A stretch of 41,472 bases of DNA from an uncultured archaeon (lineage in GTDB: Archaea > Thermoplasmatota > Penumbrarchaeia > JASLWR01). Below the pieces are notes generated by a model. That model saw only the letters and a list, made by a program, of their open reading frames with translations. It was not told the origin of the DNA and did not search any database. Positions 7,652 through 39,600 of this stretch are shown one piece after another; within the stretch, counting starts at the first letter, position 1; each line of letters opens with the position of its first letter. The DNA is taken from the NCBI GenBank assembly GCA_964342815.1, contig CAYFHS010000035.1:5077-46548 (forward strand), in the 5' to 3' direction. Position numbers and translations under genes: made by a program.

Positions 7652-8313
7652 TTCACCTCTCCCGATGGACCGATGAACAAATATTCAGGCATTTTCGGGA
7701 CGTATAACGCCGAATGGATGTAGGCGCTGAACCACAGGAAAGAAATAAAACCGAAAAGCAATCCCGTAATTAGGCGCATGGGATTAGTACTCTCGTATGA
7801 TGAAGCCATTTGTACGGACCCGTCGATCACCATGCTCAGGGCAAGGAGAACGGATGGTATGGCCAGCAGAGGTGAGAATACTACGTCGACTCCCGTTCTT
7901 TTCCTTATTCTTTCATCGCCCCTCCTTATCTTCTTCGATATTTTTCGGGGGAGAATAGATAAAATAATTTCCGAAGCCGTTTCCCTGGCCGGGAGAACGA
8001 TAGGTATTATCAATCCAAAGGAAAGCCCACCAAATATACCCACGTCCCTTGCACACATGGGCATCTGGTTCCCGTTGATCACGAAAGAGCGGTGCTCCAT
8101 CTGGTGACAGTTGAAATCTCCAAAATAATAGATTATTCTGGGATAAAACGGAAGTGTGTTCCAGAAATTGGAATGGTCCAGCATGTTAGCGTTTGCGTCC
8201 ATGTGCCTCACCGTTCCGGGCTCCATAATATAAGGAACGATAAATTGAGATACCGCAATGAAAAAGATGACGCAGAAGAGAGGAATTGTTATCTTCTTGC
8301 CTGTATTAACCAT
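7648..8313 (-). CDS. DUF2085-like membrane protein
   Basis: CHQMEHRSF...QMPMCARDVGIFGG signature, 'DGSVQ...ESTNPMRLITGLLFG', TM segments. Overlaps the tgtA start by 4 nt (ATGA). Confidence 0.8.
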   Translation of the reverse strand: MVNTGKKITIPLFCVIFFIAVSQFIVPYIMEPGTVRHMDANANMLDHSNFWNTLPFYPRIIYYFGDFNCHQMEHRSFVINGNQMPMCARDVGIFGGLSFGLIIPIVLPARETASEIILSILPRKISKKIRRGDERIRKRTGVDVVFSPLLAIPSVLLALSMVIDGSVQMASSYESTNPMRLITGLLFGFISFLWFSAYIHSALYVPKMPEYLFIGPSGEVK

Positions 8314-8425
8314 TCCTGCGTGTAACTATCTGGAACGCTATAAATGGTTCGGTGAAATAAGATATGCGGAGTGGCCTGCGAAAAGGATGCCTTGTCTCTG
8401 GGTTTTCATGGGGAGGGAAAACACT

Positions 8426-8438
8426 GTAAATTATAAAT
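8426..8438 (+). promoter_or_regulatory. Putative BRE/TATA promoter of the ATP synthase operon
   Basis: GTAAA-TTATAAAT about 75 nt upstream of the atpH ATG. Confidence 0.5.
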
Positions 8439-8512
8439 ATAGAAATACATTTTGGCATGGGACCACGCGCGGGCTCCGTGATGGAAATATTAAGGATTAT
8501 AGGTGGGATGAC

Positions 8513-8839
8513 ATGCTCGAAAACGATATCGTCAAAATAAAGAAAGCAGAGGCTACTGCGGCGTCATTGATAGTCGAGAAGGAGAGGGGAGCGGAAGCCC
8601 ACCTGGCAAAGACAAGGAAACTCCTTGAGAAACAAATGACGGATGATATCGAGAAGAACCGCCAGGTTTTTCTCGGGACGGACAGCAAGCTAAGAGCCAA
8701 TATCGATGCCAGGTCATCCAACATCATCAAAGAAGGGAAAAAAGAAGTGGTGTTACTCAGAAAAAAGGTGGAAAAGAACGTCCAGCAAACCGGCAAAGCA
8801 ATTTTCGAAACTGTACTTGAAACGCTGGAAAACGAATAA
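8513..8839 (+). CDS. atpH: A/V-type ATP synthase subunit H (peripheral stalk, G-like), 108 aa
   Basis: In-frame ATG at 8513 after an SD-like AGGTGG (the ORF track's 8258 start is too long). 'IVKIKKAEATAASLIVE' charged helical pattern. Lies directly upstream of atpI. Confidence 0.75.
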   Translation: MLENDIVKIKKAEATAASLIVEKERGAEAHLAKTRKLLEKQMTDDIEKNRQVFLGTDSKLRANIDARSSNIIKEGKKEVVLLRKKVEKNVQQTGKAIFETVLETLENE

Positions 8840-8880
8840 CCCCAACAGACCCCTCCATGATATAACGGATAAGTGGTAAT

Positions 8881-10920
8881 TTGTTATTCCCTCGAAAAAT
8901 GGTCAAGGCGAACATAATTGCACACAGCAGTATCCTAGAGGATACCGTTGATGCGCTCGCTTCTGCAGAAATAATGCAGGTTGACCCTGTGGATGATAAC
9001 CTCAGCGAGGATTTGCGAGGCTATCTCGGGACCTTGACTACACCTTCCAGGCATACCGCTCTTCTGGAGATCGAACTGCGAATGGAGCGGCTCATGGACA
9101 TATTTTCTACCCATTTTCCCAGCCAAACAAGTATGTTGGCCGATCTTTTTCCCAGCACTGCCAAGAAGGTAAAGGTCGGTAAACTGAGCTTCGGGGAACT
9201 GAAGGCCCGAAGCGAGAGCTTGATGGGGAATATTGAAAAATCCATTCTTGCAAAGAACGACCGGCTATCGGAGATAAACGACGAGCTGGCCAGGAATAGG
9301 GAAAAAAAGGCACAGATATCTCTTCTCGAACCCCTGGACATTCCTCTCGATTACCTCGACGACGGCAAATATACTTTCACGAGGATCGGGACCGCCGATG
9401 ATATTTCCGAGCTCGACAGGATTCTGATGAACATACCCGAGGCCACCTTCGATCACGTTCCCACAGGTCTTCCTGAGGCACCCAATGTTGTGGTTATCAC
9501 CGGGATGAAGGAGGTCAAGGAGGACGTTTCGAAGGCGCTCCGAGGGAAAATATTCAACGAACTTCAGCTTCCGGAGCTTACGGGAAGACCGAAAGAGATT
9601 CTTTCGGAACTCAATAAAACCATAGAGAAACTCGAAAAGGAGCGTGAAAAGCTTCTTGATGACCTGCTGAAGCTTAAGGACGAGTGGACCCCAAAGATAG
9701 ATGTGGAAATGGAGTTGGTCCGTATAAAGAGAGAAAAGTACGAGACCTATGCACGTTTGGGGAAGACTAAGGACACCGTGGTTATATCGGGGTGGGTGGA
9801 AGTGGAGAAGAAGGACGAATTGAGTAAACATTTGAGACCTTTGAAATATATCGAGATAAGCTATGCGGAGCCGGATACCGAGAAGGATACAGTTCCCTCG
9901 TCGCTTTCTCATTCGCGGTTTATCCGTCCTTTCGAATCATTAGTAAATACGTTCTCACCACCCAAATACAATGACTTGGATCCTACTCCTTTCGTGGCAG
10001 TGTTCTTCGTCCTCTTCTTCGGTATGATGCTTGGGGATGCCGGTTATGGATTGATGATACTTATTCCTAGTATATGGATAGGTAGGAAGGTAAAGGAAGG
10101 ATTTGCAGCTTCATTCGCTTTAATTGGTAAATGTATCGCAGCAGTCACTATAATAATGGGACTCGTCACGGGTTCTTTCTTCGGAGATCTCGTACAACGT
10201 TTAATATATATGGATGTCACCCGCACCCTTTATCCTGAATTTTATATTGGGGTCATAAAATTTCCATATGATCCTCTTGTCGATCCTTTACCGCTCTTCC
10301 TCATCGGATTGGGGCTGGGTGTTATTACAATCTATCTTTCCGTGATACTATCAACTATCACTCATACACTACAAAAGGACTTTAAAACTTTATTATTGAC
10401 CGATACGCCCTTGGTAATAATGATTCCTTCTTTGATAATTTTGGTTCTGCAAATGCTGGAAATAGCGACTATTCCCTCAATTATTCAAACTATCTGTCTC
10501 GGGGGGATTGCGTTATCATTTATCCTTTTTTTATGCAGAGATTACAAAATGCCACTCCTTGCAGTTTTCGAATTCACCGGTTTTATCGGGGATCTCCTTT
10601 CATTTGCACGGATTCTCGCTCTGGGTCTGGCAACGGTCGGGCTGGCAATGACTTGGAATATTGTCGGGGAAATGTTTCATCCCGCTGGAAGTACAGTGAT
10701 ATGGTGGATATTAAAGATGTTAATTTTGTTAGTGATATTGGTGTTCTTTCATTTGTTCAACTTTGCATTTCAGACGCTTGGCGCGGGTATCCACGCGCTT
10801 AGATTACAATATATTGAGCTTTTCAATAGGTGTTATGTAGGTGGAGGTGTTCTATTTAGTCCTCTTACGGAGCACAGAGTACATACTGAGGCTTTCGGCA
10901 GAAAGTATACGAAGGAATAA
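8881..10920 (+). CDS. atpI: A/V-type ATP synthase subunit I (a)
   Basis: Soluble N-terminal half; PPKYNDLDPTPF...FFGMMLGDAGYG; essential Arg in GDLLSFARILALGLA; IHALRLQYIE...GGG. TTG start. Confidence 0.96.
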   Translation: MLFPRKMVKANIIAHSSILEDTVDALASAEIMQVDPVDDNLSEDLRGYLGTLTTPSRHTALLEIELRMERLMDIFSTHFPSQTSMLADLFPSTAKKVKVGKLSFGELKARSESLMGNIEKSILAKNDRLSEINDELARNREKKAQISLLEPLDIPLDYLDDGKYTFTRIGTADDISELDRILMNIPEATFDHVPTGLPEAPNVVVITGMKEVKEDVSKALRGKIFNELQLPELTGRPKEILSELNKTIEKLEKEREKLLDDLLKLKDEWTPKIDVEMELVRIKREKYETYARLGKTKDTVVISGWVEVEKKDELSKHLRPLKYIEISYAEPDTEKDTVPSSLSHSRFIRPFESLVNTFSPPKYNDLDPTPFVAVFFVLFFGMMLGDAGYGLMILIPSIWIGRKVKEGFAASFALIGKCIAAVTIIMGLVTGSFFGDLVQRLIYMDVTRTLYPEFYIGVIKFPYDPLVDPLPLFLIGLGLGVITIYLSVILSTITHTLQKDFKTLLLTDTPLVIMIPSLIILVLQMLEIATIPSIIQTICLGGIALSFILFLCRDYKMPLLAVFEFTGFIGDLLSFARILALGLATVGLAMTWNIVGEMFHPAGSTVIWWILKMLILLVILVFFHLFNFAFQTLGAGIHALRLQYIELFNRCYVGGGVLFSPLTEHRVHTEAFGRKYTKE

Positions 10921-10959
10921 TCACAGTCAAAAAAATATAAAAAAAATCGAGGTGACAGA

Positions 10960-11724
10960 ATGAAAACAAAAAAGAGTCTAATATTGATAAGTGTCTTTGT
11001 CTTGGGTTTGATCCTTTGCGCAAGTTCGACCTTTGCGCAGGATGTCAAAGTCGATGAAGATGGCGACGATTTGGATGATTCATGGGAATTGAATATCATT
11101 CAGAAAAACGGATTGGGTCATAACAATGTTTCAATGTTTTTGAACTATTCCGACCCTGATAACGATGGGTTTACAAACCTGCAAGAGTACAATAATGGAA
11201 CGGATCCCTATAATAAAGAAGACACTCCTGGAGAAGAGAAAGACAGGGAGAAAGGGACTGCACTTTTCCTGCTTGGTGTCGCCATTTGTATTGGGGTCCC
11301 TGGGATAATGGCTGCATTTGGTTTATACATCGCAGGTGTCTCCGCGGTGGGCATGACGACGGAACATACTGACCGATTTAGTAAAGGTTTGATCCTTCAG
11401 GCGCTTCCGATGACTCAAGGTGTGTATGGTTTAGTTTTTGCTATATTACTTCTACTCGGTGTCGGGTACATCGGTAGTGGTGACCCTGCCCTTCTCTCCG
11501 ATCCTACTGTAGGTTGGGGTGCGATTATGATCGGAATAACAATTGCCCTTACCAGCGTGTCTGCCATACCGCAGGGTCTAGTGGCGGGAGCCGGAGCTAG
11601 TGGTGTGGGAAGGAATCCAGATATATTCACAAAAGGTCTCATTTATGCTGTTATGCCGGAAACCATGGCAGTGTTTGGTTTTCTCATATCGCTCTTCATT
11701 ATTCGTGGTATCGGCTTAATGTAG
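10960..11724 (+). CDS. atpK: A/V-type ATP synthase subunit K (c, double hairpin, Na+-type site) with N-terminal signal peptide and exported TSP3-like acidic domain
   Basis: aa ~100-254 form four TM helices with ALPMTQGVYG, SAIPQG and AVMPETMAVFG. aa 1-26 are a signal peptide (MKTKK, hydrophobic core, STFA|Q). aa 27-95 contain DEDGDDLDDSWE...DPDNDGFTNLQEYNNGTDPYNKEDT. Confidence 0.93.
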   Translation: MKTKKSLILISVFVLGLILCASSTFAQDVKVDEDGDDLDDSWELNIIQKNGLGHNNVSMFLNYSDPDNDGFTNLQEYNNGTDPYNKEDTPGEEKDREKGTALFLLGVAICIGVPGIMAAFGLYIAGVSAVGMTTEHTDRFSKGLILQALPMTQGVYGLVFAILLLLGVGYIGSGDPALLSDPTVGWGAIMIGITIALTSVSAIPQGLVAGAGASGVGRNPDIFTKGLIYAVMPETMAVFGFLISLFIIRGIGLM

Positions 11725-11743
11725 GACTGATGGAGGACCGTAT

Positions 11744-12316
11744 ATGGGCCTGAAAGATATCCTTAACAAGATCGAAAGTCAGCAGGATCAACGGATCAAG
11801 GAGATCAAGCGGAACAACGCGCGTGAGATCGCCGAGATAAGATCGGAGATGAAGGGGAAAGTTAGTAAGGAAAAGGAAAGGGTTCAAAGCGAGCTGGCCA
11901 AGGAGCGTGAAATATACAGCAACCTTAAGATATCGGAGGGGAAACGAAGCGTTAAGCGGGAGATGCTGGCCGAAAAGGAGCGCTTGATTAACCTGGCTCT
12001 CGGGAATGTGCTCGATAGGTTCGGTGAATTCAAGGGGGAGCGTTACCGCAGTTTACTCAAGAAATTGGTAACGGAGAGTGCCAAGCTGCTCAAGGGTAAA
12101 TGCAGGATACTTGCCACCCGGGAGGAAGACATCCCCTACCTTAAGAACCTGGGAATCGCACCTGTGAGAAATAAAACCATACCGGGAAGGGGAGGAGTAA
12201 TTGTGGTGTCGGAAAACGGCGAGTTCCGTATTGACCGGACCTTCGATTACATGATGGAAAAGCAGAGCGACGATCTTAGGAAGATGACCGCGGGAATTCT
12301 GTTCAAGGAGGAATGA
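11744..12316 (+). CDS. atpE: A/V-type ATP synthase subunit E
   Basis: MGLKDILNKI start, long charged helix, GGVIVVSENGEFRIDRTFD; operon position. Confidence 0.92.
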   Translation: MGLKDILNKIESQQDQRIKEIKRNNAREIAEIRSEMKGKVSKEKERVQSELAKEREIYSNLKISEGKRSVKREMLAEKERLINLALGNVLDRFGEFKGERYRSLLKKLVTESAKLLKGKCRILATREEDIPYLKNLGIAPVRNKTIPGRGGVIVVSENGEFRIDRTFDYMMEKQSDDLRKMTAGILFKEE

Positions 12317-12319
12317 TAG

Positions 12320-13441
12320 TTGGACCCGAGTACCTGGCTGTGGATTGGTTTGATCAGTTTGCTCTTCGGAGCAGTCTTGATCTATTTGGGGATGAAGGTT
12401 CCCATGGTATGGACCATAGCGAGGTTCGGATATTCCAACGCCTTGTACAATTCACGGGTAAACCGGTTCGTAAGACGCATGTATGTGAACAATCTCATGG
12501 GAACGAATTCCTTTGCGGAAGCGGTGAATTTCATTTCGTCCGCCAGTTCCAGGGACTTCCCGTTGAAAACCGTGACCAATGCAGAGGATGCAGAAGCAGT
12601 ACTTTTATCCGCCATGTTGGAGAACGTCCAGAAGGCCAAGGAAGAGTCACCCGATATGATCGGCCCTGTTCTGGACAGCTTTATCATACGATACGAGAAC
12701 CGTACCCTGAAAAGCCTTTTCAGTATCCGGTTCCACGAATCCGCTTCTGACACCGGGATATTTCCAGTAGGGGCTGTTACTGCGAAGCTCATCGAGGAGA
12801 TGAAGAAAGCTGAGACCCTGGATGAAATGATTGATCTTATTCCCCGGTCCGAACTTCGTGACCTGCTTTCCGGGGTTGAGCTCGATACCTTCCAAAAGGT
12901 GGAAAACCTGCTCGATGGGTTCTACATTCAGAGTGTAGAGCACTCCTCCTCCAAGTTACCCCGGACGCTGAAGAAGGAGATGGGGGCGTTCCTTGAGGTT
13001 TACAGCGATATGCTGACAATAAAGACAATACTGAGGATGATAAAGGCTGGAGTACCGGCTGCCCAGAGGAAGGAATTTTCCTTTGCACGGGGGAAACACA
13101 TCACAAGGGATGCACTGGAGGCCCTGCAGGAAGCGGAGAACGTAGCCGAGGCTGTGGATGCGCTGGGCAGCACTCCCTACGCTCCTCTTCTGCGCGAGGT
13201 TTTCAAGGACTTCAAGGACACTGGTCGAATTTCCCTTTTTGAGCTTGAACTTGACCGATTCTGGATCCGATACATTGAGATATTTGCCATGAAGATGAAC
13301 ACCACGGTAGGGCCGGTTATCCGATACCTTACGGAACTGGAATTCGAGACCAGGAACGTAATCGCAGTCCTTCGGGGCTTCGAGGTGCCCGGCGGAAAGG
13401 AAATTGCCGAGGAGCTGTTGATAGTCAGGGGGTCCGCCTGA
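12320..13441 (+). CDS. atpC: A/V-type ATP synthase subunit C (d-like), with N-terminal hydrophobic segment
   Basis: FGYSNA, YENRTLKSLF, LGSTPYAPLL, ELELDRFW, YLTELEFETRNVIAVLRG; operon position. Confidence 0.88.
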   Translation: MDPSTWLWIGLISLLFGAVLIYLGMKVPMVWTIARFGYSNALYNSRVNRFVRRMYVNNLMGTNSFAEAVNFISSASSRDFPLKTVTNAEDAEAVLLSAMLENVQKAKEESPDMIGPVLDSFIIRYENRTLKSLFSIRFHESASDTGIFPVGAVTAKLIEEMKKAETLDEMIDLIPRSELRDLLSGVELDTFQKVENLLDGFYIQSVEHSSSKLPRTLKKEMGAFLEVYSDMLTIKTILRMIKAGVPAAQRKEFSFARGKHITRDALEALQEAENVAEAVDALGSTPYAPLLREVFKDFKDTGRISLFELELDRFWIRYIEIFAMKMNTTVGPVIRYLTELEFETRNVIAVLRGFEVPGGKEIAEELLIVRGSA

Positions 13442-13773
13442 TGAACATAGCGGTAATGGGCGACAAACACACTGTACAGACCTTCTCCCTTGCAGGAGTG
13501 AAGCAGTACCACATAGTGGAGAACTTCGATTCTACCGAAAAGATAGAAGAGGGTTTTGACGGGTTCGTGGCCAATGAGAATATTTCTATTATCTTTTTGA
13601 CCGAAAGGACAGTAAGGGCCATAGACACAAAGCTCAAGTATCATGCGGAACTAAAACAACTCTATCCTCTGATAATCGCCATACCCGACGTTTCCGGCGA
13701 AAGTGAAGGGGAGGACCGGGTCAAGTCACTTATAAGACGGGCCGTGGGTGTGGACATCAAAGAGGAAGTGTAA
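13441..13773 (+). CDS. atpF: A/V-type ATP synthase subunit F
   Basis: MNIAVMGDKHTVQTFSLAGV ... ISIIFLTE ... PLIIAIPD ... LIRRAVGVDI. Confidence 0.95.
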   Translation: MNIAVMGDKHTVQTFSLAGVKQYHIVENFDSTEKIEEGFDGFVANENISIIFLTERTVRAIDTKLKYHAELKQLYPLIIAIPDVSGESEGEDRVKSLIRRAVGVDIKEEV

Positions 13774-13861: not shown

Positions 13862-13884
13862 TCTATAGTCCCCTATATTTGACT

Positions 13885-14103
13885 ATGGTAACTACTATAC
13901 AGGTAAGTGGAGAACTGCAACAAGAGCTCTTAGCTAGAAAGTTATTTGACAGAGAGACTTACGAGGAAGTAATTTGGGATCTAATTGAGGATAGTATGGA
14001 ATTAAATGATACAACTAAAAAGGAATTACAAAGAGCAAGAGAGGAGATTCGTTCAGGTAAATCCTATACTCTATCTGAAGTGAAGAAAGAGCTGGGTATA
14101 TGA
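13885..14103 (+). CDS. Antitoxin (RHH-like N-terminus), 72 aa
   Basis: MVTTIQVSGELQQELL...ETYEEVIWDLIE; C-terminal 'ARE...GKSYTLSEVKKELG' typical of RelB-type partners; ATGA overlap with the toxin. Confidence 0.8.
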   Translation: MVTTIQVSGELQQELLARKLFDRETYEEVIWDLIEDSMELNDTTKKELQRAREEIRSGKSYTLSEVKKELGI

Positions 14104-14351
14104 GTTACGAAATTATTTTCTCGGCTTCTGCTTTTAAAAAATTAAAAAAGTTGGAAAGAAAAGATAGAGAAAGGATTATTTCAGCACTTGAACGTATCAG
14201 GATCAGACCGGAGAAATATGTTACAAAACTTGTTGGCGATCCGGGTTATCGTTTAAGAGTTGGTCAATATAGAGTAATAATGGACATCGATAAGGGAAAA
14301 TTGATGATTCTAATAATAAAAATTGGCCATCGAAAGAATATATATAAATGA
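14100..14351 (+). CDS. relE: RelE/StbE-family mRNA interferase toxin
   Basis: MSYEIIFSASAFKKLKKL...KLVGDPGYRLRVGQYRVI...IGHRKNIYK; 83 aa, basic. Confidence 0.92.
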   Translation: MSYEIIFSASAFKKLKKLERKDRERIISALERIRIRPEKYVTKLVGDPGYRLRVGQYRVIMDIDKGKLMILIIKIGHRKNIYK

Positions 14352-25166: not shown

Positions 25167-28100
25167 ATGGTGAATGAATCGGTTAAAAAAACGGCGGAAA
25201 AGGCGAATTCCGAGGAAGATACTTCCGAGATAGATCAGCAGAAAGATGATCACAACGGGAAGGAAATCTCCGAAGAGAATCGCATCTCTGCGGAAGGAGA
25301 GGAAGAGGATAAAGGATCCAAGATCGATGAAACCCTTTCTGAAGAAAGCGATCTCTCGTCTCAGGTGGAGCATGAGCGCATGTATGATGAACAATCTCCT
25401 GATGCTCTCACCCTCATTGGCGATCTGAAAGAGGGTGGACGTTACAAAGGCATCATCACCGCTATAAAGGACCTTCGTTCGTCTATGGATGAAAAGATAC
25501 AGGTCCGTCTCCGAAAGATAAGCGAACAACGTTTGGAAGAAGCCGAACAGTCTCTAAACGATTTAGAGGAGGAGAGCGGAAGGGACTTCGACGAACTGAG
25601 AGATTTTCTTGAACATGCCAATACAGCAATGTCTCAGGGCGATTATGATTCTGTTGATACCTTTTTGGATTCGTACATCAGGACCAAGGAAAGCCATGAG
25701 GACCGTGTTCTTTTGGAAAAATACCGGCAGGAAATGAAAAAACTCCGTTCTGACTTATCCATTCTTGAAGAAGCCGGAATTGAACCGCCCGGTAGTGAAA
25801 GGAATATTTCCTCCATTGAAAGAGGTATGGCAGCCCGGCAGTTTGACATGGTAAAAGAAATGATGAAGGAAACAGCTCAGCGGATCAATGATGCAAAGAC
25901 CACTACCGCCAAGAACGTCGCACGAATCGAATTCGCCAGTGTGAAGAGCTCCTTTGACAGACTGAAAAAGACCGGTTTAGAGCTCACAGAAGAAAAAAAG
26001 ATATTCCGAGATGCAATGATCGCTATCAAGAAACAGCAATACCTTGAAGGATGTATACTTCTACGTCGCACAAGCCATTTGCTGGAAAAAGCAGATACGG
26101 GGCGATTGAGGGGGGTTTTATCATCCCGTCTTGAGGAGCACCGAAAATTCTTTTTAATGATCGAGAGCCAGCAGTATTTCTCTGCAGATTACCGTAATAG
26201 CATAAAGGAAGCATTGAATGACCTCGAGGGAATGATCGATGAAGGACAGATAAGCAAAGCGGAATCGGAAATGAAGATGTTTCACAAAATTATGCAGGAT
26301 CTGAAGGACAAAATGGATAAATTCGACCGCACGAAGGTATTGTCGGATGAAGTGACGACACTAATGGAAAAGTCTGAGGAAATGGAAATAGATGTCAAGA
26401 AAGAAATGGAGATGGCCGAGGAGAGTAAGAAACATTTGGAATCGGATAACACGGAGGACGCACATATCCTTCTTATCCAGACGAAGAACTCTCTCCTAAA
26501 TCGGATGGAACAACACCTCAGAGGAGAAGCCGAGAAGCAGTTGAAGGAAGGAAAGAGCGCCATATATGATAATCGAGAGGTAATTGAAGATACTTCCAAG
26601 ATCAATCTTCACCTATTGAATGCAAATACATATTTTGCTCAAAGGAAATATGAACACACAATAAAAACAGTATCCAAGATAATACAGCTGATCGGCGAAA
26701 TGAAAGAGCGAAAAACCACATCAGCAACGAAAAGCCTATTTTCGGAAGCGGAAACGGCCATAAACGAAAACAAAGAAAGAGGAATCAAGGTTTTCGAATC
26801 TGAAGCACTTTATTACAAAGCCAAGTTCTTTTTTGAAAAGAACGACCTTGATCAAGCCACCACTTACGCCAGAAGTTCTCTGAATTGCACTATACGGGAA
26901 CGGACCGAAGTAGAGAAGAAGAAAGCCCGCCTCCCTCTTACCCAGGCTCAGCAATTCATGAAGGAAGCGGTTGCTATCGGTGCGGATGTGAAGGCTTCCA
27001 GTGGGATTATAATAAGTGCTCAGAAATATTTTGACAATGGAAAATTCTCCAAGGCCGCGGAGTGGGCGAATCTTGCCAAAAACGAGATCGAGGAATCCAT
27101 AAACAAGCGATTGTTATCTATCATAAAAGACAAAAAACACGAAGTTGAGTCGTTATTCGCTGAAGCTGGAGAAATTAATCTGGATATCGATGTGGAAAGT
27201 CGGCATTTCAGTACTATTGATGAGCTTCAGACTGGAAAAAAATACCGTGAAGCCATTGATGTTCTCAAAATGATACAGAGTTCTATGAAAAAGATGATCA
27301 AGGAAGGAATAAGGAGGATAAATGCCGAAAAGATCGATAATGCTCAGGAATCCCTTTCTGTGCTGCAAGAGACGTGGGGACTGAATTTTGAGGAGCTGGG
27401 AGAAACCTTGGAAATGGCAAGTTCTGCGCTTCAGGAGGGCCGATACGAAATCCTAGATGCCCATATCGAGGAATTCTCAAGGACGCGGGAACGACATCAC
27501 AATGTTCGTTTATCTGAATCCTATGCGAGCAAAGTCGCGGATGTAGCACCTGACCTTGAAACCCTTAAGGGTCTTGGGATCGATATTTCGGGGGCGGATG
27601 AGTTGGTGGCATCCGTCAGCCATAGTATAACCAATTTTAATTTCGAGGATACGGAAAGATATTTGGCCAAATTATCGGAATTTATCGATGATGCCAGAAC
27701 GGTGAAGGCCAAAAAACGAGCCGGAGAGTACTTCAAAAAGACGAAAGGGATATTCCTTGAAATGAAGGACGAGGGTATTCCCATGGATGAGGCAAAGGAA
27801 CTTATCAAGGGAGCCCTTGGATATATCAATTCAAAGGATTATATAAAGGCAATCGAGGGGACACTGGTCGCCGAAAATGCTTTGTATGAGGCCAGAGACC
27901 GGTACTACAAAGCAGCCACGATAGTTCTTCTCGGTGAGATAAAGGAAATGGAGGGCGAGGGGGGAAAGTTAGGACTTGACCTTTCGGGCATCACTGGAAT
28001 GACCGGAGAGATTCAGACAAGTATTGAACAAGGGAACTTTTTGGAAGCTAGGGACTTGGCTGTACTCTGTAGTGATGAGCTTAAGAAAACCATAGAGAGC

Positions 28101-31100
28101 AAATTATTGGACATGCTGGAAAACAGCATGTCCCGATTAATGCCAGCCCTGGAAGAGGCAAGCGAAATTGGAGCTGATGTAAATGAAGAAAACGAAGTGC
28201 TCCCACAGCTCATAGAGATGAAAGAGAAGAAACAATACAGGGCGGCCATGGAAAGGATTGATTCACTGGCAAGATCGGTTGATAAGAAAAGAAATGCCCG
28301 ATTAAGACAGCTAAATTCCCAAAAGGTCTATGTCGCTGTGAACACAATGCTTACTCTTCAGGAGGAGACCGGGTGGGAATTGGACGAATTACAGATTCAT
28401 CTCGATAAAGCCCAGGAATCTCTGGAAAGGAACAATTATGAGGGAGTGGATGCTCATCTAAACGAATATTTTCAGTTGAAATCCGAAGCTAAGAACCGTT
28501 TTTTAAATGAAAAATACAGCAAGGAGCTACACGAGATAACTAGCAATATTCCCACACTACGGAAAGTGGGTATCGAAATTGACGATACGGATGAATTGAT
28601 CAATATCATTGAAGAAGACCTATCAAACAATAATTTCGACATGGTTGCAAAGAAAATGGATGACCTGTCGGCGTTGATGGATGAAGCAAGATCTATACGG
28701 GCAAGAAAACTGGCAAATAGGAGTTTCAATGATGCCAAAGGATTGTTCGTTCGGCTCAGGGATACCGATCTAGATATAAAAAAGGAGAAAGAGGATTTCA
28801 AAAAAGCAGTTGAAATGACGAAATCCAGGGATTTCGTAGGTGCTTGTGAGTTGATTTTAGATCTTATCGAACGGTTGGAGAAAGCCAATGAGGGTTATGT
28901 CCTCACAAAACTATACCAACAGCTTGAGGAAGCTGAAGTTTTCCATAAGAAATTACATGCACATGAGTACTTCCCCATAGAGACGAAGCGAGATTTCAAG
29001 AATTCTCTCAATGGGGTAATAACTATACTGGGAGAGAAAAATCTGTCTCTTGCAGGGGCCGAAATGAAAGATCTCGTTGATCGTATCATGCATTTGGAAT
29101 CAATTATGAGCAATTTCAACGAAACTTCAGGTCTTTTAACTGAACTGGGAGACCTGGTGGCGACGGGAAAGAAAATGGCCCTCGATACAGAGGTGGAAGA
29201 GCGGTCCCTCACGGAAGCCATGGAACTGAAGAGGACCGACAAGTTCATCGAAGCTATTTCCTTATTGAAGGAAGCCAAAGATGGCCTGGAACTTAAGATC
29301 GAAAACCGTAACGCCGAATTGGCAAAAGAATCAATCGAACAGGCTGAAAAGGACCTTGAGGACAGCATAGATATTTTCAAGGATCCCGATGCAATGATGC
29401 AGCGCCTGTCGGATGCAAAAGTTTTGTACGATAGAAAGGAGTATGAACATGCAGCCGAGATTTCGCGGGGGCTTATTCATATTATCGAGGAGGCCCGAGA
29501 ACAGAGAACGATAAAGGAACTTGGCCGTTTTATCAAGGATGCCCGGGATTTAATCGACGAGAATGAAAAACTAGGGATAGAAATATTCCAGTCCGACGCG
29601 CTCTATTATAAAGCAAGGTATCATTTCGAGAGAAAGGAGTACGAACAATCTCGGAAGTATTGTGACGAGGCCAAGGAAAACACAATAGAGAGCAGGACTG
29701 AGTTCCTTAGACGGGGGGCATCCGACGGCCTTAACGAAGCCTTGGACCGTTTGAAGAAATCCGTTGAGCTTAAATTGGATGTAAGCGACCCCGAGGAAAG
29801 GTTAAAAGAAGCAAGGAAACTCCATGAGGACAAGAAATATGAGGAAGCTAGAGCTCTCATAAACAACATTATAGATGAATTGGAAAAACAGCAATTCCAG
29901 CATCAAAAGGAAACACTCTCCGCCCAAATGAAGGATTTCAGGGAGTTCATCAAAAACCTTCAATCTCTTACCTATATTTCGGAGGAGTATGCCAGCAGAG
30001 TGGAACTGACCTATGAGGTGATGGAAGATCTGTTCCGGCAGGATGAACTCAGCAAACTCGAGATTAAGATCAGCCTGTTCCGGGACGATATGTCCAAACT
30101 TGAGAGAATGATGGGGCACCACGATGAGGCCCAACAGTTGATGCAATCTATCCAGCATCAGAGACATCGTGTTAGGGAACTTGATATCGATATCAGAAAG
30201 GAAGACGGTTGGTTGGATGATGCCCAGATGATGATGCAGGAGAAAAGATTCCGGGAAGCCACGCAGTTATTGAAAGGGACAAAAAATTCTCTTGAGAATA
30301 AAATAGAGATATTCCGGATGAAAAACGCTCAGGGCCTGCTGGAAAGGGCAGTTAGAATGGTGGAAGAGAATCAAAATATTATTGAAGAACTAAGTTCAAT
30401 GGAAGAATATTTCTCCACGGCAACCCGATTCATAGAGAAAAAGCAATACCTGGAGGCAACCGATTCACTCACCGAGCTGATACGTCTCATAGAGGAGATC
30501 CGGGAAAGGAAGAGATCGGAAGATATCGGAAACCTGCTTGATGAGATCAGAGAACTAATGATGGAGAACCAGAGCTTGGGTCTGGACATCTCCCCTTACA
30601 AAGACCGTTTGGACCAAGCAAGAGCATCACTGGAGAGAAAGAACTACGGATTGGCCGAGAAATACGGAAGAGAGGTCAGAGAAATCGCAATTGACAGCCA
30701 ACGAGCGTTTTACAAGATAAAATCCGCTTCACAACTCGAGGAGGTTATGGAAGGGATTCAGGAACTTAAAGACTTGGGTATCCAGACTTCAATCATGGAA
30801 GAGGAACTTGAAAATGTTCTGCTACTTCGGGAAAAGGCGGAATTCCACAAAGCAGTGGATCATTCCCTTAGCATCATTGACAGTATTAATGAAACGAGAA
30901 AACACCATTTCCGCGGCCAAGTTTCAGCATCTCTCACTGATCTGGATAAGATGATGGATAGAGGACGGGAGCTGGGTATTGAACTCAGCTCACTGAAAGA
31001 TGAGATGACCAGATGCACCACCTTATCCGAGGAAGAGAATTTCAAGGACGCCGTTGAGCTTTCAGAATCAGTGCGATCGAGATTGAGTGAGCTGATAGAC

Positions 31101-34100
31101 CAGCGCTTGAATGAACGAACCCAGAGGAAGATCGATGATCTGTCTGAGGCTGTGGAAAAAGCGATATCCCTTTCTATCGACGTAAGCGCAGAAAGCGAAG
31201 CCCTTAGAAACGTTGAGGTGATTCAAAAGGAAGCAAGATACGAGGAAGCTGCCGATATTATTCTTTCCAACAAGGTTTCAGTTGACAACAAGATAAATTC
31301 CTATCTCAGAAAGACGAGTATGGGAAAGGTGAATGATATTGCCAAGGAGCTTTCATCTTTCCAGGAGGAGACGGGGAAGGAATACTCAGAACTGGAATCC
31401 CTCGTGGAGCTTGCTAACAAATCCATAGAGAAAATGGATTACGATGCGCTGGATTCTATCATTCAGGAATTTGGAAAATTGAAGGAGGCTCACAAGAAGA
31501 ACTACTGGAGTGGGTGGTACAGCGAGCAGATCGAAATTCTGAAGGGTGAGAAACAGGATATCATGAGGACCAGTTTCGACGTCTCCTTTGTTGCCAAACA
31601 GCTAGAAATTTTGAAGGATACGGTTTCTCGATCCGATTTCGAAGCGGCTAAAGAGGTCCTGGGAGAGGTGAAATCCGCAATCAGAGAAATAAAGATGGTA
31701 CAATTGAGGGTAATGGCCAAGGATATCATCAGCGAAACCAAAACCATCTTCGATAACATGAAGAATACCGATGTTGAACTTGAGCGTGAGATGAAAATAT
31801 TCTCGGAAGCCTGGGACAGTTTCAAATCAAGGGATTTCGTAGACGCGGTTGTGCAGAGCTCCGAAGCGAGGGAATTGATCCAAAGTGCCCATGATGGCTA
31901 CTTCAAAGAGCAGGCATTGTCCATCCTCGAAGATATAACTGTGATGATGGGTGAAAACGAGGACCTGATGCTTGACACCCGGAGACTGAGGGAGACCACC
32001 GATGACTTGAAATTGCATCTCGATGAGCGTGATGTGCACAGTTCCATAGAAATAGCAAATGGCACTTGGGAAGAGTTACAGGATATGGTGGAAGCCGCGC
32101 TGAACCAAAATGTGGAAAAAGCTTTGGATGACTTACGCGAAAAGATGGAGGAAGCCGTCGCGTTGGAACTCGATCTCGGCGACGAAAATGAATCACTGAA
32201 TGTTATCGAAGGACATAAAGGTGAAAAAAGGTACCGTGAGGCCTTGAATATCCTTGAGAAAAACCAGACTGTACTGGCAGATAAGATAATTGAAGGAACA
32301 GTGAAAAAACATTCAAGGATGATAGATGAGGCAAGAAATGCATTGGCAAGCCTGGAGGAAGAAACCGAGAAGGATTACCGTGGGCTTCGGGCAATGCTGG
32401 ATGAGGCGTTTCGGGCAAATGGAAAAAAAGAGTTCGACGCTGTGAAAGATCGCCTGGAAGAATTCTACGAATCTAAAGATAAACAATATGAACGGGCTCT
32501 TTCTGAAAAATATTCAAAGCAGATGTCTAGTCGTGAACTGGAGATTACCCGCATCAGGGAACTGGGTATCGACTGCACTATAGGAGACGACCTTCTATCT
32601 TCTGCCCGTGATCATCTTTATAAAAACGAATTTGCTATGGTACTCAATTTCCGACAAAGTCTTGATGAGTTTATAAAGGATGCGAAGACCGTACAGGCCA
32701 AGAACCTGGCAAAAGATCTAATGCAGAAGGGGAAAACGGGGATACGGAATTTGAAAGGGGTCGGAAGGGAAGTGATCGAAGAGACCAAGGTTTTAAAGGA
32801 AGCTATTAATCATATAAAGGAGGGAGAATTCCTCAAAGGATGCGAGCTTGCACTGGAAGCAAACCGGATGCTTGAGGCCGCTTATGAAGAACACCTCAAG
32901 AATGATATCACTTCTCAGCTGGCAGCTTTCAGAGAATTTTACAGGGAAGTCGAGAAGAACAAGTATTTCACAAGCGAATACAAGCTGAGACTCAAGGCAA
33001 TGATCGAGGCTGCGGAGTTCGGGCTTCACCAGAATAGGTTGAAAGAGGTATTGGAGGGAGTTGAGGCCTTTAAGGCAGTGATCTCGGAAACAAGAGCAAG
33101 AATGGAAAATTTTCAAAAAAGCGAACATCTCTTGAAGATCAATGACGAACTTTTTGGAACTGCATTAACGCTGAGTATAAACGTGGCTCTGGAAAGGACC
33201 ATATTAAAAGAGGTAGAAAGATTAAACGTCAGTGGTAGACTGGACGATGCACTGCCGTTATTAAAAGAAGCCAACGAATCCCTTGAGAACAAAATAGACC
33301 TCACCCGGATGGAGGAAGCCAACACTTTATTCGAAAAGGTGATTAATAAAGTTAGCGAGAATGAGGAAGCAGTCAAAAACATTTCGGGGTTGGACGACCT
33401 GATCTCCACAGCTAAAGTACATATGGGTGAAAAGAAATACGATCGTTTCACAGAGGTTTCAGAACGTATCATACGACTGGTCACCGAGGCTAAGGAAAAG
33501 CAGCTTGTGGATGAGATAAGACCTTTGATCGCCGAATGTGCAAGTATTATCGAAGAGAACCGGGAGAGCGGTATTAACATTTTCAATTCGGAGGGAATGC
33601 TGAACAAAGCTAAACTATTCCTTGAGAGAAAGGAGTACGAACTGGCGGAGGAACACTCAAAGAGTGCTCTTGAGCAAGCTCTGAGTGACCGACGTGGATT
33701 TGATAAGAAAAACGCCTCTTCAGCCCTTGCCGCCGCATGGGGTATGATAAGCAAATCACTTGAAATGGGGCTTGAGATATCTGAAATCGAGGCCATGATG
33801 GCTACTGCACAGGTTCTTTTCAAGGAGGAGAAATTCGTTAAGGCAGCCGAGGCGGCCAAGGAAGCAAGGTCCGTAGTAATGAATGGATGGGAGAAGCATT
33901 ACGTTGAGAACACCGCAAAACTAAAAAAACAGATCTCGGAAATGGTGGAAGAAGGTAGGGAACTGGAATTGGACATGACTCCTATCGAGGAAATGATGGA
34001 AAAGACGGAAACGCATCTCAAAGAAGCAAACTTCAAAGATGCAGAGGGTGTCGCAAGAGAGACCAAGGACATACTTGGGGAAATGATCCGTTCGAAGCTT

Positions 34101-36674: not shown

Positions 36675-39600
36675 TGGTGAATTCTGACGGCCTTTCTCTT
36701 GAGGAAGAACTTGCTAAGCTTCTGGAAGAAGAGAAGAAAGTTGATGAACAGATCACCCAGATCTCTCAGAAGGAAGAAGAGAAAACGTATGAGCTGGAAC
36801 AGCTTGATAAGGATATTATAATAGCCCAAAAACTTCTGGACGAAGCCGTAGATGTTGGAATTGAAGAGGAACGCGTAGTTGAAATTTCAAAGGAAAAGAA
36901 GCTTGAGGAGGAGCGACTGGCCGAGGAAGCACGGATTGCAGAGGAGAGAAAGCTTGAAGAGGAACGATTGGCCGATACTGCGCTTGCGGCCAAGGAGAAA
37001 AAGCTCGCTCTGGATAAACTGAGCAAGGAGAGGAAGCTTGAGGAAGAACGCCTGGCAGAGGAGAAAAGGCTTGGGGAAGAGCGCCTGGCGGAGGAAAAGA
37101 AATTTGAGGAAGAACGATTGGCCGAAGAAGCTCGTGCGGCTGAGGAAAAGAAGCGTGAAGAGGAACGATTGGCCGAAGAAGCTCGCGCAGCTGAGGAAAA
37201 GAAGCGTGAAGAGGAACGATTGGCCGAAGAAGCTCGTACAGCTGAGGAAAAGAAGCTTGAGGAAGAACGATTGGCCGAAGAAGCTCGTGCGGCTGAGGAA
37301 AAGAAGCTTGAGGAAGAACGATTGGCCGAAGAAGCTCGTGCAGCAGAAGCCAAAAGACTCGAAGAAGAGAAATCTGCAAAGATCGCAGCCGAGGAAACGG
37401 AAGCGGCAGAAACTCTTGAGGCCATCAGAACACTTGTAAAAGAGAACGAGATTATGAAACTCGACATTTTCCAGCCCGAGGCGCTCTTACTGAAAGCTAG
37501 ATTGGCCCTTGATAATAAGAAATTCGATGAGGTGAGGGAATATTGTGCTGAGGCAAAGGAACTGACTCTCGCCCAGAGAAAGGCCGTTGAGGGCAAAGAT
37601 GCGGAGGAATTCGAAGCGGAGTTTGGAGAAATTCGCGATTTAATGATGATGGCGGAATATGGTGGTCTCAATGTAGAGAAAGAACAAGCAGAATTCGATG
37701 TTATACTGGATTTGAAGAAAGAGGAAAAATATATTGAGGCCCTCCAAAAAACGTTACAACTCAAAGCCCCTCTTGATCGAAGGCTATACGATGAGCTTCA
37801 TGTGGTCAAGATCGAGAATATCGACCGGGCATTGACCGAATTGGAGGAATTCATCAAAGAAACTGGGATCGAATTCGCTGATCTAAATACTTTCCTGGTA
37901 GCGGCAACGGAAGCCCTAAAGGAAAAAGATTACAAAAAATTGGATGCATCACTGGAGCAGTTCCGCATTTCCAAAGAAAAGCACATCGAGAGGATGACCG
38001 CCGAGAAATATGACCAGATCATAAGTGAGATTGAAGATGATGCCGCTAAATTGGAAGCGGTAGGGCTGGAGGTCGAGTTTGTGGGTGACCTCGTCGGCAT
38101 AGCGAAAGAAAGCCTTTCCCTGTCCCAAACAGAAGCCGGGGAGGGTTATCTGGACAAGGCCCGATCTCTCCTTGAAAAGCTAAAAGGTACGGAATTGAAA
38201 GAGCTTGCAAAGGAGCATTTTTCCGAGGCCAAGAAGGTATTCTCGCTAATAAAGAAAGCAGGTATAAAGGCGGATGATGGAAAGCAAAAACTGAAAGAGA
38301 CCATCGCTGTCTTCAGAAAGAAGGACTATCTCGGGGCGGCTATTCTCTCACGTGAGGTAACCGAAGAGTTGACGAAACTCCACGATGCATTCAAAGCCCG
38401 GGAAGAGGAACAGAAGGAGATCGAATCGATCAATACTATGAAGGATGACTTGAAAAAATTGATCGAGGCTGCGGCGGCGAGAGGGCTGGATACTGGTCAT
38501 ATTGAAGAAAGGGTCGAGCTTTCCGGATTTAGGGTGGATGAAAAGAAATACAACGACGCAAAAGATATGCTCAATAAAGCCAAGGACGAACTACAGCAGA
38601 TGGTGGAAAGCGATGAGAAGGGTTCAATATTCAAAGCGAAGTTCGAAGAGCTTCCTGTATTACTGGATGAGCTGAAGAATAACGATCTTGACGTAACGGA
38701 GGAACTAAGTGAGATTGATGAAATTGCCGAAATGGAAAGGAAAACACGATACGTTGAGGGATTGGAGAGGATCGAAGAGCTAAGCTCGTCCCTTCTGAAC
38801 CGTATAAAAGAGGACCTCTACGAGCCTAGAGACAAGAGTATGAAGGAAGCTATCAAGCTGTTAAAAATTCACAAGGAAGAGGTAGGCGAGGGTTTCGAAG
38901 AGCTGCAGGGATTGCTGGTCAAGGCAAGAGAAGCTCTCGAGGAGAAGAGATATCGAGAAGCTGATGACCTTTTGGACAGTTTTGCTGAAAAGAAGCGGAC
39001 CCTGCGGGAAGATTTCGAACTGAAAGAATATGGGAGGAGGATCGAGCACCTCAGTTCGGAAATCTCTCTTATAAGTGAGCTTGAAATAGACGTGAGCGCA
39101 TGCGAAGACTTGGTGATGCTGGCGAAGAAAACGCTGGACCGAGGGGAAATTTCGGACCACCTGGAAAAGATGGTTGCCAATGCCGAGAAACTTTTCAAGG
39201 ACATACAGACGAAGGAACTATTCAACAAGGCCCGGGAATACGTTTACAAAGTGAAGACACAGATCGACGACCTTAAGAAGGAGGGTGGGGAAGTATCAAA
39301 CGAGGTAAAGATGCTTAAAAAAGCAATGGCTTCCATGGTGAAAAAAGATTATATCGGTACTTGCAAGATAGGTCAATCCATAAAGAATAACCTTGCCAAA
39401 ATGGAAGAGGAACTGAGCACGAAAAAATTAACTGCAGAACAGGAGGAGAAAAAAGCTAAGGTACTGGAGATCCTGGAAGCTGCGGAAGATATAATGGCTG
39501 AGGCAAGAGGGATGGGAGTGGAGGTAGGCCTCAACGCTGATAGACTCGAGATCGCAAGATCTCGATTCGATGAGGGGAAATTCGAGGATGCGTCAGAACT

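What the first reader, a model, noticed from the sequence alone, without database searches (positions are those of the whole stretch)
10960..11244. ATP synthase rotor subunit K fused to a signal peptide and an exported TSP3-like Ca2+-binding domain
Seen: before the c double hairpin lie a cleavable-looking signal peptide (MKTKK, hydrophobic core, STFA|Q) and ~70 aa containing DEDGDDLDDSWE and DPDNDGFTNLQEYNNGTDPYNKEDT. That domain holds three N-glycosylation sequons (NVS, NYS, NGT). It is one continuous ORF with its own SD (GAGGTGA). Established: DxDxDGxxDxWE / DxDxDGxTNxxEYxxGTDP motifs are thrombospondin-type-3-like Ca-binding repeats of secreted proteins. The c-subunit N-terminus faces the outside of the membrane, so export of this domain fits the topology. 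Inference: every c subunit would carry the domain, forming a possibly glycosylated, Ca-binding crown on the outer face of the rotating ring. It could plug the ring lumen, sense Ca2+ or act as a brake, or couple rotation to an extracellular structure. I know of no described A/V/F rotor with such an appendage; short cleaved presequences are known, folded domains are not.
Basis: partly seen in the sequence, partly recalled or inferred. Interest (0 to 1): 0.85.

Follow-up and report, generated by a model that had tools for sequence, protein, structure and literature searches.

The report
ATP synthase rotor with outside collar
The membrane rotor subunit of this marine archaeon's ATP synthase is made with an export signal and a small module predicted to bind calcium and carry sugars outside the cell, a design shared by most of its class and one I found in no paper I could search.

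Summary
Confirmed. Window 10960-11724 is one 254-aa ORF: signal peptide (aa 1-26), one acidic two-loop DxDxDG module (aa 32-88), a short stalk, and a V-type double-hairpin subunit K with a full Na+ site. It is the only c/K gene found in the genome and has no internal start. Contigs from another sample and another study bridge the junction. The design occurs in 31 of 37 genomes of class EX4484-6 (Ca. Penumbrarchaeia). The module is under strong purifying selection (dN/dS 0.08; c core 0.04) and keeps a loop sequon in 27 of 30 copies (3 of 21 in the genome's other repeats). Other Thermoplasmatota, including cultured Aciduliprofundum boonei, carry an unrelated PKD/Ig domain there, or a signal peptide alone. 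AU tests reject one clade for either appendage. Best reading: a calcium-stabilised, glycosylated structural collar on the outer face of the spinning ring; a sensor or brake is less likely, and ten copies are too large to plug the lumen. Retention, calcium binding, glycosylation and function are untested. The scan found this design before on other DNA (e1-2783656; PKD forms e1-2602653 and others). No paper found.

The parts
10949..10955 (+). Shine-Dalgarno-like GAGGTGA before atpK
   Evidence: purine-rich elements (GGAGG or GGTG type) precede the start in the relatives listed
10960..11037 (+). Predicted cleavable Sec signal peptide, aa 1-26
   Evidence: Basic n-region, hydrophobic core, small-x-small end; 32 of 32 module-bearing sequences examined have such an end; poorly conserved (27% mean identity, dN/dS 0.38). 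SignalP not available.
11053..11223 (+). Acidic two-loop DxDxDG module (TSP3_bac-like), aa 32-88, predicted Ca2+-binding, outside face
   Evidence: D34, D36, D40, W42, E43, D65, D67, D69, G70, N73, E76, P83 invariant in 31 sequences; dN/dS 0.076; model pLDDT 82; Atlas structure neighbours mostly TSP3_bac clusters, TM 0.66-0.76
11125..11151 (+). Inter-motif loop sequons N56 and N62
   Evidence: A loop sequon in 27 of 30 K-fused modules against 3 of 21 in the genome's other repeats; genome encodes an STT3/AglB
11224..11256 (+). Short charged linker/stalk; helix continuous with TM1 from about aa 92
   Evidence: Model helix 66-109 of the mature chain = aa 92-135; no ATG/GTG/TTG between aa 62 and M117
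11257..11724 (+). V-type double-hairpin subunit K with one Na+ site (T152, Q153, Y156, Q205, E234)
   Evidence: Best PDB match E. hirae NtpK 2BL2 by sequence (E 5e-29) and fold (TM by target 0.89, rmsd 2.3 A); site residues invariant
8258..8839 (+). Probable subunit H (start may lie further downstream)
   Evidence: Position and charged helical sequence; matches the gene before atpI in relatives; no Pfam hit above cut-off
8881..10920 (+). Subunit I (a) with the essential-Arg motif at aa 574-581
   Evidence: Pfam V_ATPase_I, NCBIfam PRK05771, motif
11744..13773 (+). Subunits E, C and F, completing the H-I-K-E-C-F operon
   Evidence: Pfam PF01991, PF01992, PF01990; A and B lie on contig C5, D on C30

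Best explanation
This is the working rotor subunit of the cell's Na+-coupled A1Ao ATP synthase. The Sec signal carries the N-terminal module across the membrane and is cut after A26. The module folds around Ca2+ through its two DxDxDG loops, is N-glycosylated in the loop between them, and stays on a short helical stalk that continues TM1. In a ring of about ten subunits the modules form an acidic, glycosylated collar on the outer face that turns with the rotor. Its job is most likely structural and passive: a stable glycan-bearing cap that shields and stabilises the outer rim and lipid core and may aid assembly, much as the luminal domain of Ac45 sits on the mammalian rotor. Shown: the fusion, sole c gene found, ion-site residues, class-wide conservation, selection, repeated gain of unrelated outside domains. 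Inferred: cleavage, Ca binding, glycosylation, retention, ring size, function.
For: Only c/K gene found in an 89%-complete genome with I, E, C, F, A, B, D present. No internal start before mid-TM1. Module in 31 of 37 class genomes. dN/dS 0.076 against 0.041 for the c core and 0.375 for the signal, over 12 disjoint pairs; Asp/Glu ligand positions invariant. Loop sequon 27/30 against 3/21 in the same genome's other repeats; all 14 PKD-type ectodomains examined also carry a sequon; many members have a further sequon near the loop between the two hairpins, on the same face. AglB present. Module folds compactly (pLDDT 82) and joins TM1 through a continuous helix. An unrelated PKD/Ig domain takes the same position in other lineages; one clade is rejected for the TSP3-like set (p-AU 0.0017) and the Ig set (p-AU 1e-87), which points to a generic need. 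Ten 25-A spheres need a radius of about 41 A, close to the K-ring's outer radius (ring size from my own knowledge; 10-mer from PMC3604715).
Against: No protein-level data: cleavage, retention, Ca binding and glycosylation are predictions. Related lineages (the E2-like families, and families f2, f4, f6 of this class) have only a signal peptide and a short acidic stretch, so the module is dispensable elsewhere. PKD forms with 4 or 6 hairpins per chain would carry far fewer domains per ring, so a closed collar cannot be the general rule. Kin are not independent, so 27/30 overstates the sequon signal, and dS is near saturation in the module, so 0.076 is approximate. Ring size is assumed.
Confidence: 0.5

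Rival explanations
1. The module is a pro-domain used only for insertion or ring assembly, and is cut off before or after the ring closes.
For: Processed leaders on c subunits are known: Thermus thermophilus K appears in PDB as 99-102 aa and as 73-74 aa chains. The first luminal domain of Ac45 is removed by furin. These organisms grow on protein (PMC12220078).
Against: No conserved cleavage motif: the linker differs between families (41% identity) and is modelled as a helix continuous with TM1. A signal peptide alone suffices in sister groups.
Confidence: 0.15
2. Neutral accretion: once c had a signal peptide, abundant secreted modules landed behind it and are merely tolerated; selection only keeps them folded.
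For: The genome holds 83 HMM hits to this module in 32 ORFs. Different modules appear in different lineages, one lineage has two tandem copies (L029), and many relatives have none.
Against: Kept in 31 of 37 genomes across five families while deletion should be easy; dN/dS near that of the rotor core; sequon enrichment specific to the K-fused copies; every c copy pays for about 60 extra residues.
Confidence: 0.13
3. The N-terminal helix is an uncleaved anchor, giving a five-helix subunit like eukaryotic c''. The extra helices fill the ring lumen and the module is an outside loop.
For: The uncharged run is long (mean 24 aa). In c'' the first helix sits inside the ring.
Against: All 32 sequences end the run with a small-x-small site (a loose pattern); the segment has 27% mean identity and dN/dS 0.375, low for helices packed in a lumen.
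Confidence: 0.1
4. The module is a Ca2+ or cation sensor, an ion antenna, or a brake that acts on subunit I from outside.
For: Invariant ligand residues; net charge about -14 per module (19 acidic, 5 basic). A splayed collar would pass over the outer face of subunit I (inference).
Against: Replaced by PKD domains elsewhere. Sea water holds about 10 mM Ca2+, which should saturate such sites, and its ionic strength screens charge within a few A (own knowledge). Such DxDxDG centres are commonly structural (PMC3123361).
Confidence: 0.09
5. The collar couples rotation to an extracellular structure (motility or mechanical work).
For: The module and PKD domains are typical of surface and adhesion proteins.
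Against: This is the cell's only c gene found, so load on the rotor would cost ATP synthesis. No partner gene lies in the operon, which is the standard H-I-K-E-C-F order, followed by A in most families.
Confidence: 0.03

Closest known systems
Enterococcus hirae NtpK K10 ring (PDB 2BL2), and V-type c subunits of Pyrococcus furiosus and Eubacterium callanderi
   Same: Four membrane helices, one glutamate per two hairpins, same Na+ ligands; best match by sequence and fold. Such subunits support ATP synthesis (PMC9171764).
   Different: NtpK is 156 aa with no signal peptide and no outside domain.
c/K subunits with a cleaved leader (Thermus thermophilus K; signal-only K of other Thermoplasmatota and some bacteria)
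   Same: N-terminal export signal in front of the rotor hairpins.
   Different: Only about 5-20 residues remain outside; no folded module.
Mammalian V-ATPase Ac45 (ATP6AP1) and c''
   Same: A folded, glycosylated luminal domain attached to the rotor; Ac45, PRR and c'' TM1 turn with the c-ring (PMC7414150).
   Different: Separate chain, one copy, anchored in the lumen, beta-rich fold; no homology found with this module.
PKD/Ig-fused subunit K of Aciduliprofundum boonei (Aboo_1266, ADD09074.1) and relatives
   Same: Signal peptide, small sequon-bearing outside domain, then c hairpins, in an atp operon.
   Different: Beta-sandwich domain unrelated to this module; 2 to 6 hairpins per chain. Also not found in papers; noted before by this scan.
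Bacterial TSP3 repeat (PF18884) and binuclear Dx[DN]xDG Ca centres of thrombospondin and protective-antigen-type proteins
   Same: Paired DxDxDG loops with downstream Glu; Atlas structure neighbours mostly TSP3_bac clusters; weak PDB sequence hits to such loops (PMC3123361).
   Different: Usually tandem repeats in large secreted proteins; here a single unit on a rotor subunit. Below the Pfam cut-off in this protein; no Cys; no hit to animal TSP_3.

Membership tests
A/V-type ATP synthase subunit K, V-type double hairpin | Two ATP-synt_C hairpins with the NtpK fold | tested here: met
   Pfam 92.8 bits, two stretches; Foldseek 2BL2 E 1.5e-7, TM by target 0.89. NCBIfam K equivalogs all score below their cut-offs.
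A/V-type ATP synthase subunit K, V-type double hairpin | One carboxylate per two hairpins with Na+ ligands T, Q, Y, Q, E | tested here: met
   T152, Q153, Y156, Q205, E234 align with NtpK and are invariant in 41 sequences
A/V-type ATP synthase subunit K, V-type double hairpin | Part of a complete atp gene set | tested here: met
   I, E, C, F adjacent; A and B on C5; D on C30
A/V-type ATP synthase subunit K, V-type double hairpin | Forms a ring of about ten and carries Na+ | not testable with these tools
   Needs purified enzyme
Bacterial TSP3 repeat (PF18884) | Score above the Pfam gathering cut-off (25 bits) | tested here: not met
   19 bits here; 15 of 41 relatives match at E<=0.01, best 2e-6
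Bacterial TSP3 repeat (PF18884) | Conserved DxDxDG loop motifs and a like predicted fold | tested here: met
   Invariant motif residues shared with repeats of large secreted proteins; Atlas TM 0.66-0.76 (predicted models on both sides)
Bacterial TSP3 repeat (PF18884) | Binds Ca2+ | not testable with these tools
   Inferred from motif only
Animal thrombospondin type-3 repeat (PF02412) | Cys-linked tandem repeats matching the Pfam model or solved fold | tested here: inconclusive
   No Cys in the module and no Pfam hit; fold searches returned no thrombospondin chain, which does not exclude kinship
Sec/SPI signal peptide | Basic n-region, hydrophobic h-region, small residues at -3 and -1 | tested here: met
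   by simple rules; SignalP not available
Sec/SPI signal peptide | Cleaved in vivo | not testable with these tools
   Needs N-terminal sequencing

The most novel reading that the evidence does not exclude
Thermoplasmatota have several times fused unrelated exported glyco-domains to the ATP synthase c subunit, giving a rotating extracellular collar that is needed for ring assembly, ring size or ion tightness: an archaeal, fused-in counterpart of the Ac45 luminal cap, testable in cultured Aciduliprofundum boonei and in Penumbrarchaeia enrichments.
Probability: 0.3. Interest if true: 0.85.

Novelty: new variant of a known kind. Interest (0 to 1): 0.66.

Why it matters
The c-ring is one of the best-studied parts of bioenergetics, and its known variation is in hairpin number, ion site and ring size. 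A folded and probably glycosylated outside domain on every rotor subunit adds a new axis. That it was gained more than once, with unrelated domains, suggests a constraint on the outer face of the rotor that has not been named. It also offers a natural handle for imaging rotation from outside and for counting subunits, and a cultured organism carries the PKD version.

Tried and rejected
Chimera or frameshift: rejected. Internal start giving a plain c: none in this gene before M117; family f9 often has a Met at the start of TM1 but it is not conserved. Second, plain c gene: none found. 'Headless' operon as gene loss: A, B and D are elsewhere in the genome and the split is shared by the family. 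Complex prediction of four module copies with Ca: no answer (score 0.01), neither for nor against self-association. Fold searches with the module alone: nothing in Foldseek PDB, best Z 2.1 in the wide search. Sequence search of PDB: only weak EF-hand-like hits. Search for longer fused forms with the word-indexed tool: none, weak evidence. RNA contigs cover parts of the c moiety and the K-E boundary but not the module, and cannot show expression. The organism behind L132/P0057 could not be named. Atlas feature search of the A. boonei domain gave only scores under 0.8. The AU test on the TSP3-like set without L132 did not finish, so one origin inside the class is neither shown nor rejected. The trees are quick trees on about 157 columns with long branches. 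Ten paper searches found no description of either fusion; most subscription journals are not in the library.

Full report
Observation. The sequence holds one ORF from 10960 to 11724 (254 aa) after a GAGGTGA element. It reads: basic N-end and hydrophobic core ending at A26; an acidic stretch with two DxDxDG-type loops (aa 32-43, 65-83); a charged linker; four membrane helices. Pfam gives ATP-synt_C twice and a sub-threshold TSP3_bac hit. The neighbours are H (probable), I, E, C and F. A and B lie on contig C5 and D on C30; in the three family relatives no A gene follows F within the fetched flank, while other families keep F-A together.

It is not an artefact. The identical protein is on nine contigs. 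A contig from another sample spans 10995-11530 and one from another study spans 11148-11298, with no difference. tblastn and an HMM search find no other c gene in the 4.35-Mb, 89%-complete genome. There is no ATG, GTG or TTG between aa 62 and M117, which lies inside TM1.

Organism and spread. The class searched contains the genome of 'Thermoplasmatales archaeon ex4484_6' (L017 and L090 give the same protein), so it is EX4484-6, proposed as Ca. Penumbrarchaeia (PMC12220078). That paper lists the ATPase without comment on subunit K. Signal, module and K are fused in 31 of 37 class genomes, in five families. Four others have a signal and an acidic stretch without the motifs, one has a plain K, and one 62%-complete genome shows no gene. 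One genome has two tandem modules (L029). Among 364 further Thermoplasmatota genomes sampled, no listed match extended over the module.

The rotor part is intact. The best solved match is E. hirae NtpK by sequence and by fold. T152, Q153, Y156, Q205 and E234 align with its Na+ ligands and are invariant in 41 sequences. NtpK forms a 10-mer with one site per chain (PMC3604715), and such subunits can drive ATP synthesis (PMC9171764). Subunit I keeps its Arg motif.

The module is selected. Over 12 disjoint pairs dN/dS is 0.076 in the module, 0.041 in the c core, 0.157 in the linker and 0.375 in the signal (dS is near saturation in the module). Twelve motif positions are invariant in 31 sequences. 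It folds with mean pLDDT 82 into two loop-helix units, and in the whole chain TM1 extends outward as a helix from about aa 92. Atlas neighbours are mostly TSP3_bac clusters. Dx[DN]xDG motifs bind Ca2+, in thrombospondin as binuclear centres (PMC3123361); binding here is inferred. A sequon lies in the loop between the motifs in 27 of 30 K-fused modules, against 3 of 21 in other repeats of this genome and 29 of 188 in other proteins; the genome has an STT3/AglB gene. These counts share ancestry, so they are suggestive only.

The wider pattern. Many Thermoplasmatota K subunits have a signal peptide and 5-20 mostly acidic residues. Others carry a PKD/Ig domain at the same place, before 2 to 6 hairpins, inside atp operons. 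These include A. boonei Aboo_1266 (606 aa). That domain is unrelated to the module here. All 14 such domains examined have sequons. On trees of the c core, one clade is rejected for the Ig set (p-AU 1e-87) and for the TSP3-like set when P0057, whose core groups with bacterial-type K proteins, is included (p-AU 0.0017). Gains, losses and swaps cannot be told apart on these quick trees, but a single origin of each architecture is unlikely.

How it probably works. The signal exports the module; it folds on Ca2+, is glycosylated and stays on the stalk. Ten spheres of 25 A need a radius of about 41 A, about the outer radius of a K10 ring (own knowledge), so the modules would form a collar over the ring wall and could not fit the lumen. 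Because a beta-sandwich can stand in the same place and many relatives have neither, the shared need looks generic: a small, stable, glycan-bearing cap. I put a passive structural role at 0.5, an assembly-only pro-domain at 0.15, tolerated accretion at 0.13, an uncleaved fifth helix at 0.10, sensing or braking at 0.09 and mechanical coupling at 0.03.

Comparison with what is known. Cleaved leaders on c subunits have precedent (T. thermophilus K, 99-102 aa against 73-74 aa in PDB). A glycosylated luminal domain attached to the rotor is known in mammals (Ac45) but as a separate single chain. Ten paper searches found no folded outside domain fused to a c subunit. This scan noted the same module family on another genome (e1-2783656) and the PKD forms several times; I had reached both observations before reading those notes, and they are not independent support.

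Verdict. Real, class-wide and apparently undescribed; a new variant of a known machine. Function is inferred. Interest 0.66.

Noticed in passing
window 8258-13773; G000 C5 about 116.9-120.1 kb (L125); G000 C30 17.9-18.5 kb (L182): The atp genes are split in three: H-I-K-E-C-F here, A-B on C5, D alone on C30. No A follows F in L006, L007 or L008 either, so the split looks family-wide.
   Followed up: yes
L168:5269-7086 (-), L169:3678-5486 (+): Aciduliprofundum K subunits: signal peptide, PKD-like domain, six hairpins, some lacking the glutamate. A cultured test case.
   Followed up: partly
L132:5001-5765: A second TSP3-like K (P0057) whose c core groups with bacterial-type K proteins, in a G/H-I-K-E-C-F-A-B operon of an unnamed organism; probably a separate gain.
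   Followed up: partly
L029:3980-4858: K with two tandem copies of the module (293 aa).
   Followed up: no
L086, L087, L088: Class families f4 and f6 have signal plus about 45 acidic residues with a short conserved PxQFGQ motif in place of the module.
   Followed up: no
L117 and L120 (G004): One genome holds two A-type gene sets: the module-bearing K with H, I, E, and a full operon with a 72-aa single-hairpin c.
   Followed up: partly
L116 (G002): A class member whose only c found is a plain 157-159-aa K in a different gene order; transfer or binning not resolved.
   Followed up: no
L181:2-688 (-): A PKD-like domain on K in one genome of a family whose other members have signal only; cut by the contig end.
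   Followed up: no
L173:2545-5442: 966-aa K without a signal peptide, about twelve hairpins by length.
   Followed up: no
G000 C17 43835-45160: The STT3/AglB match lies in an open frame of 2846 aa, far longer than a usual oligosaccharyltransferase.
   Followed up: no
window 25167-36674 and 36674-40795: Two adjacent giant ORFs (3835 and 1373 aa) with no Pfam family above cut-off; the second has weak RING and zinc-ribbon hits near its C-terminus.
   Followed up: no
window 13879-14351: Small antitoxin-like gene and ParE-family toxin directly after atpF.
   Followed up: no
window 8258-8839: The H-like ORF is 193 aa from its first ATG and overlaps the start of the opposite-strand DUF2085 gene; the genes at this position in other atp operons seen are about 103-131 aa, so the true start is probably later.
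   Followed up: no
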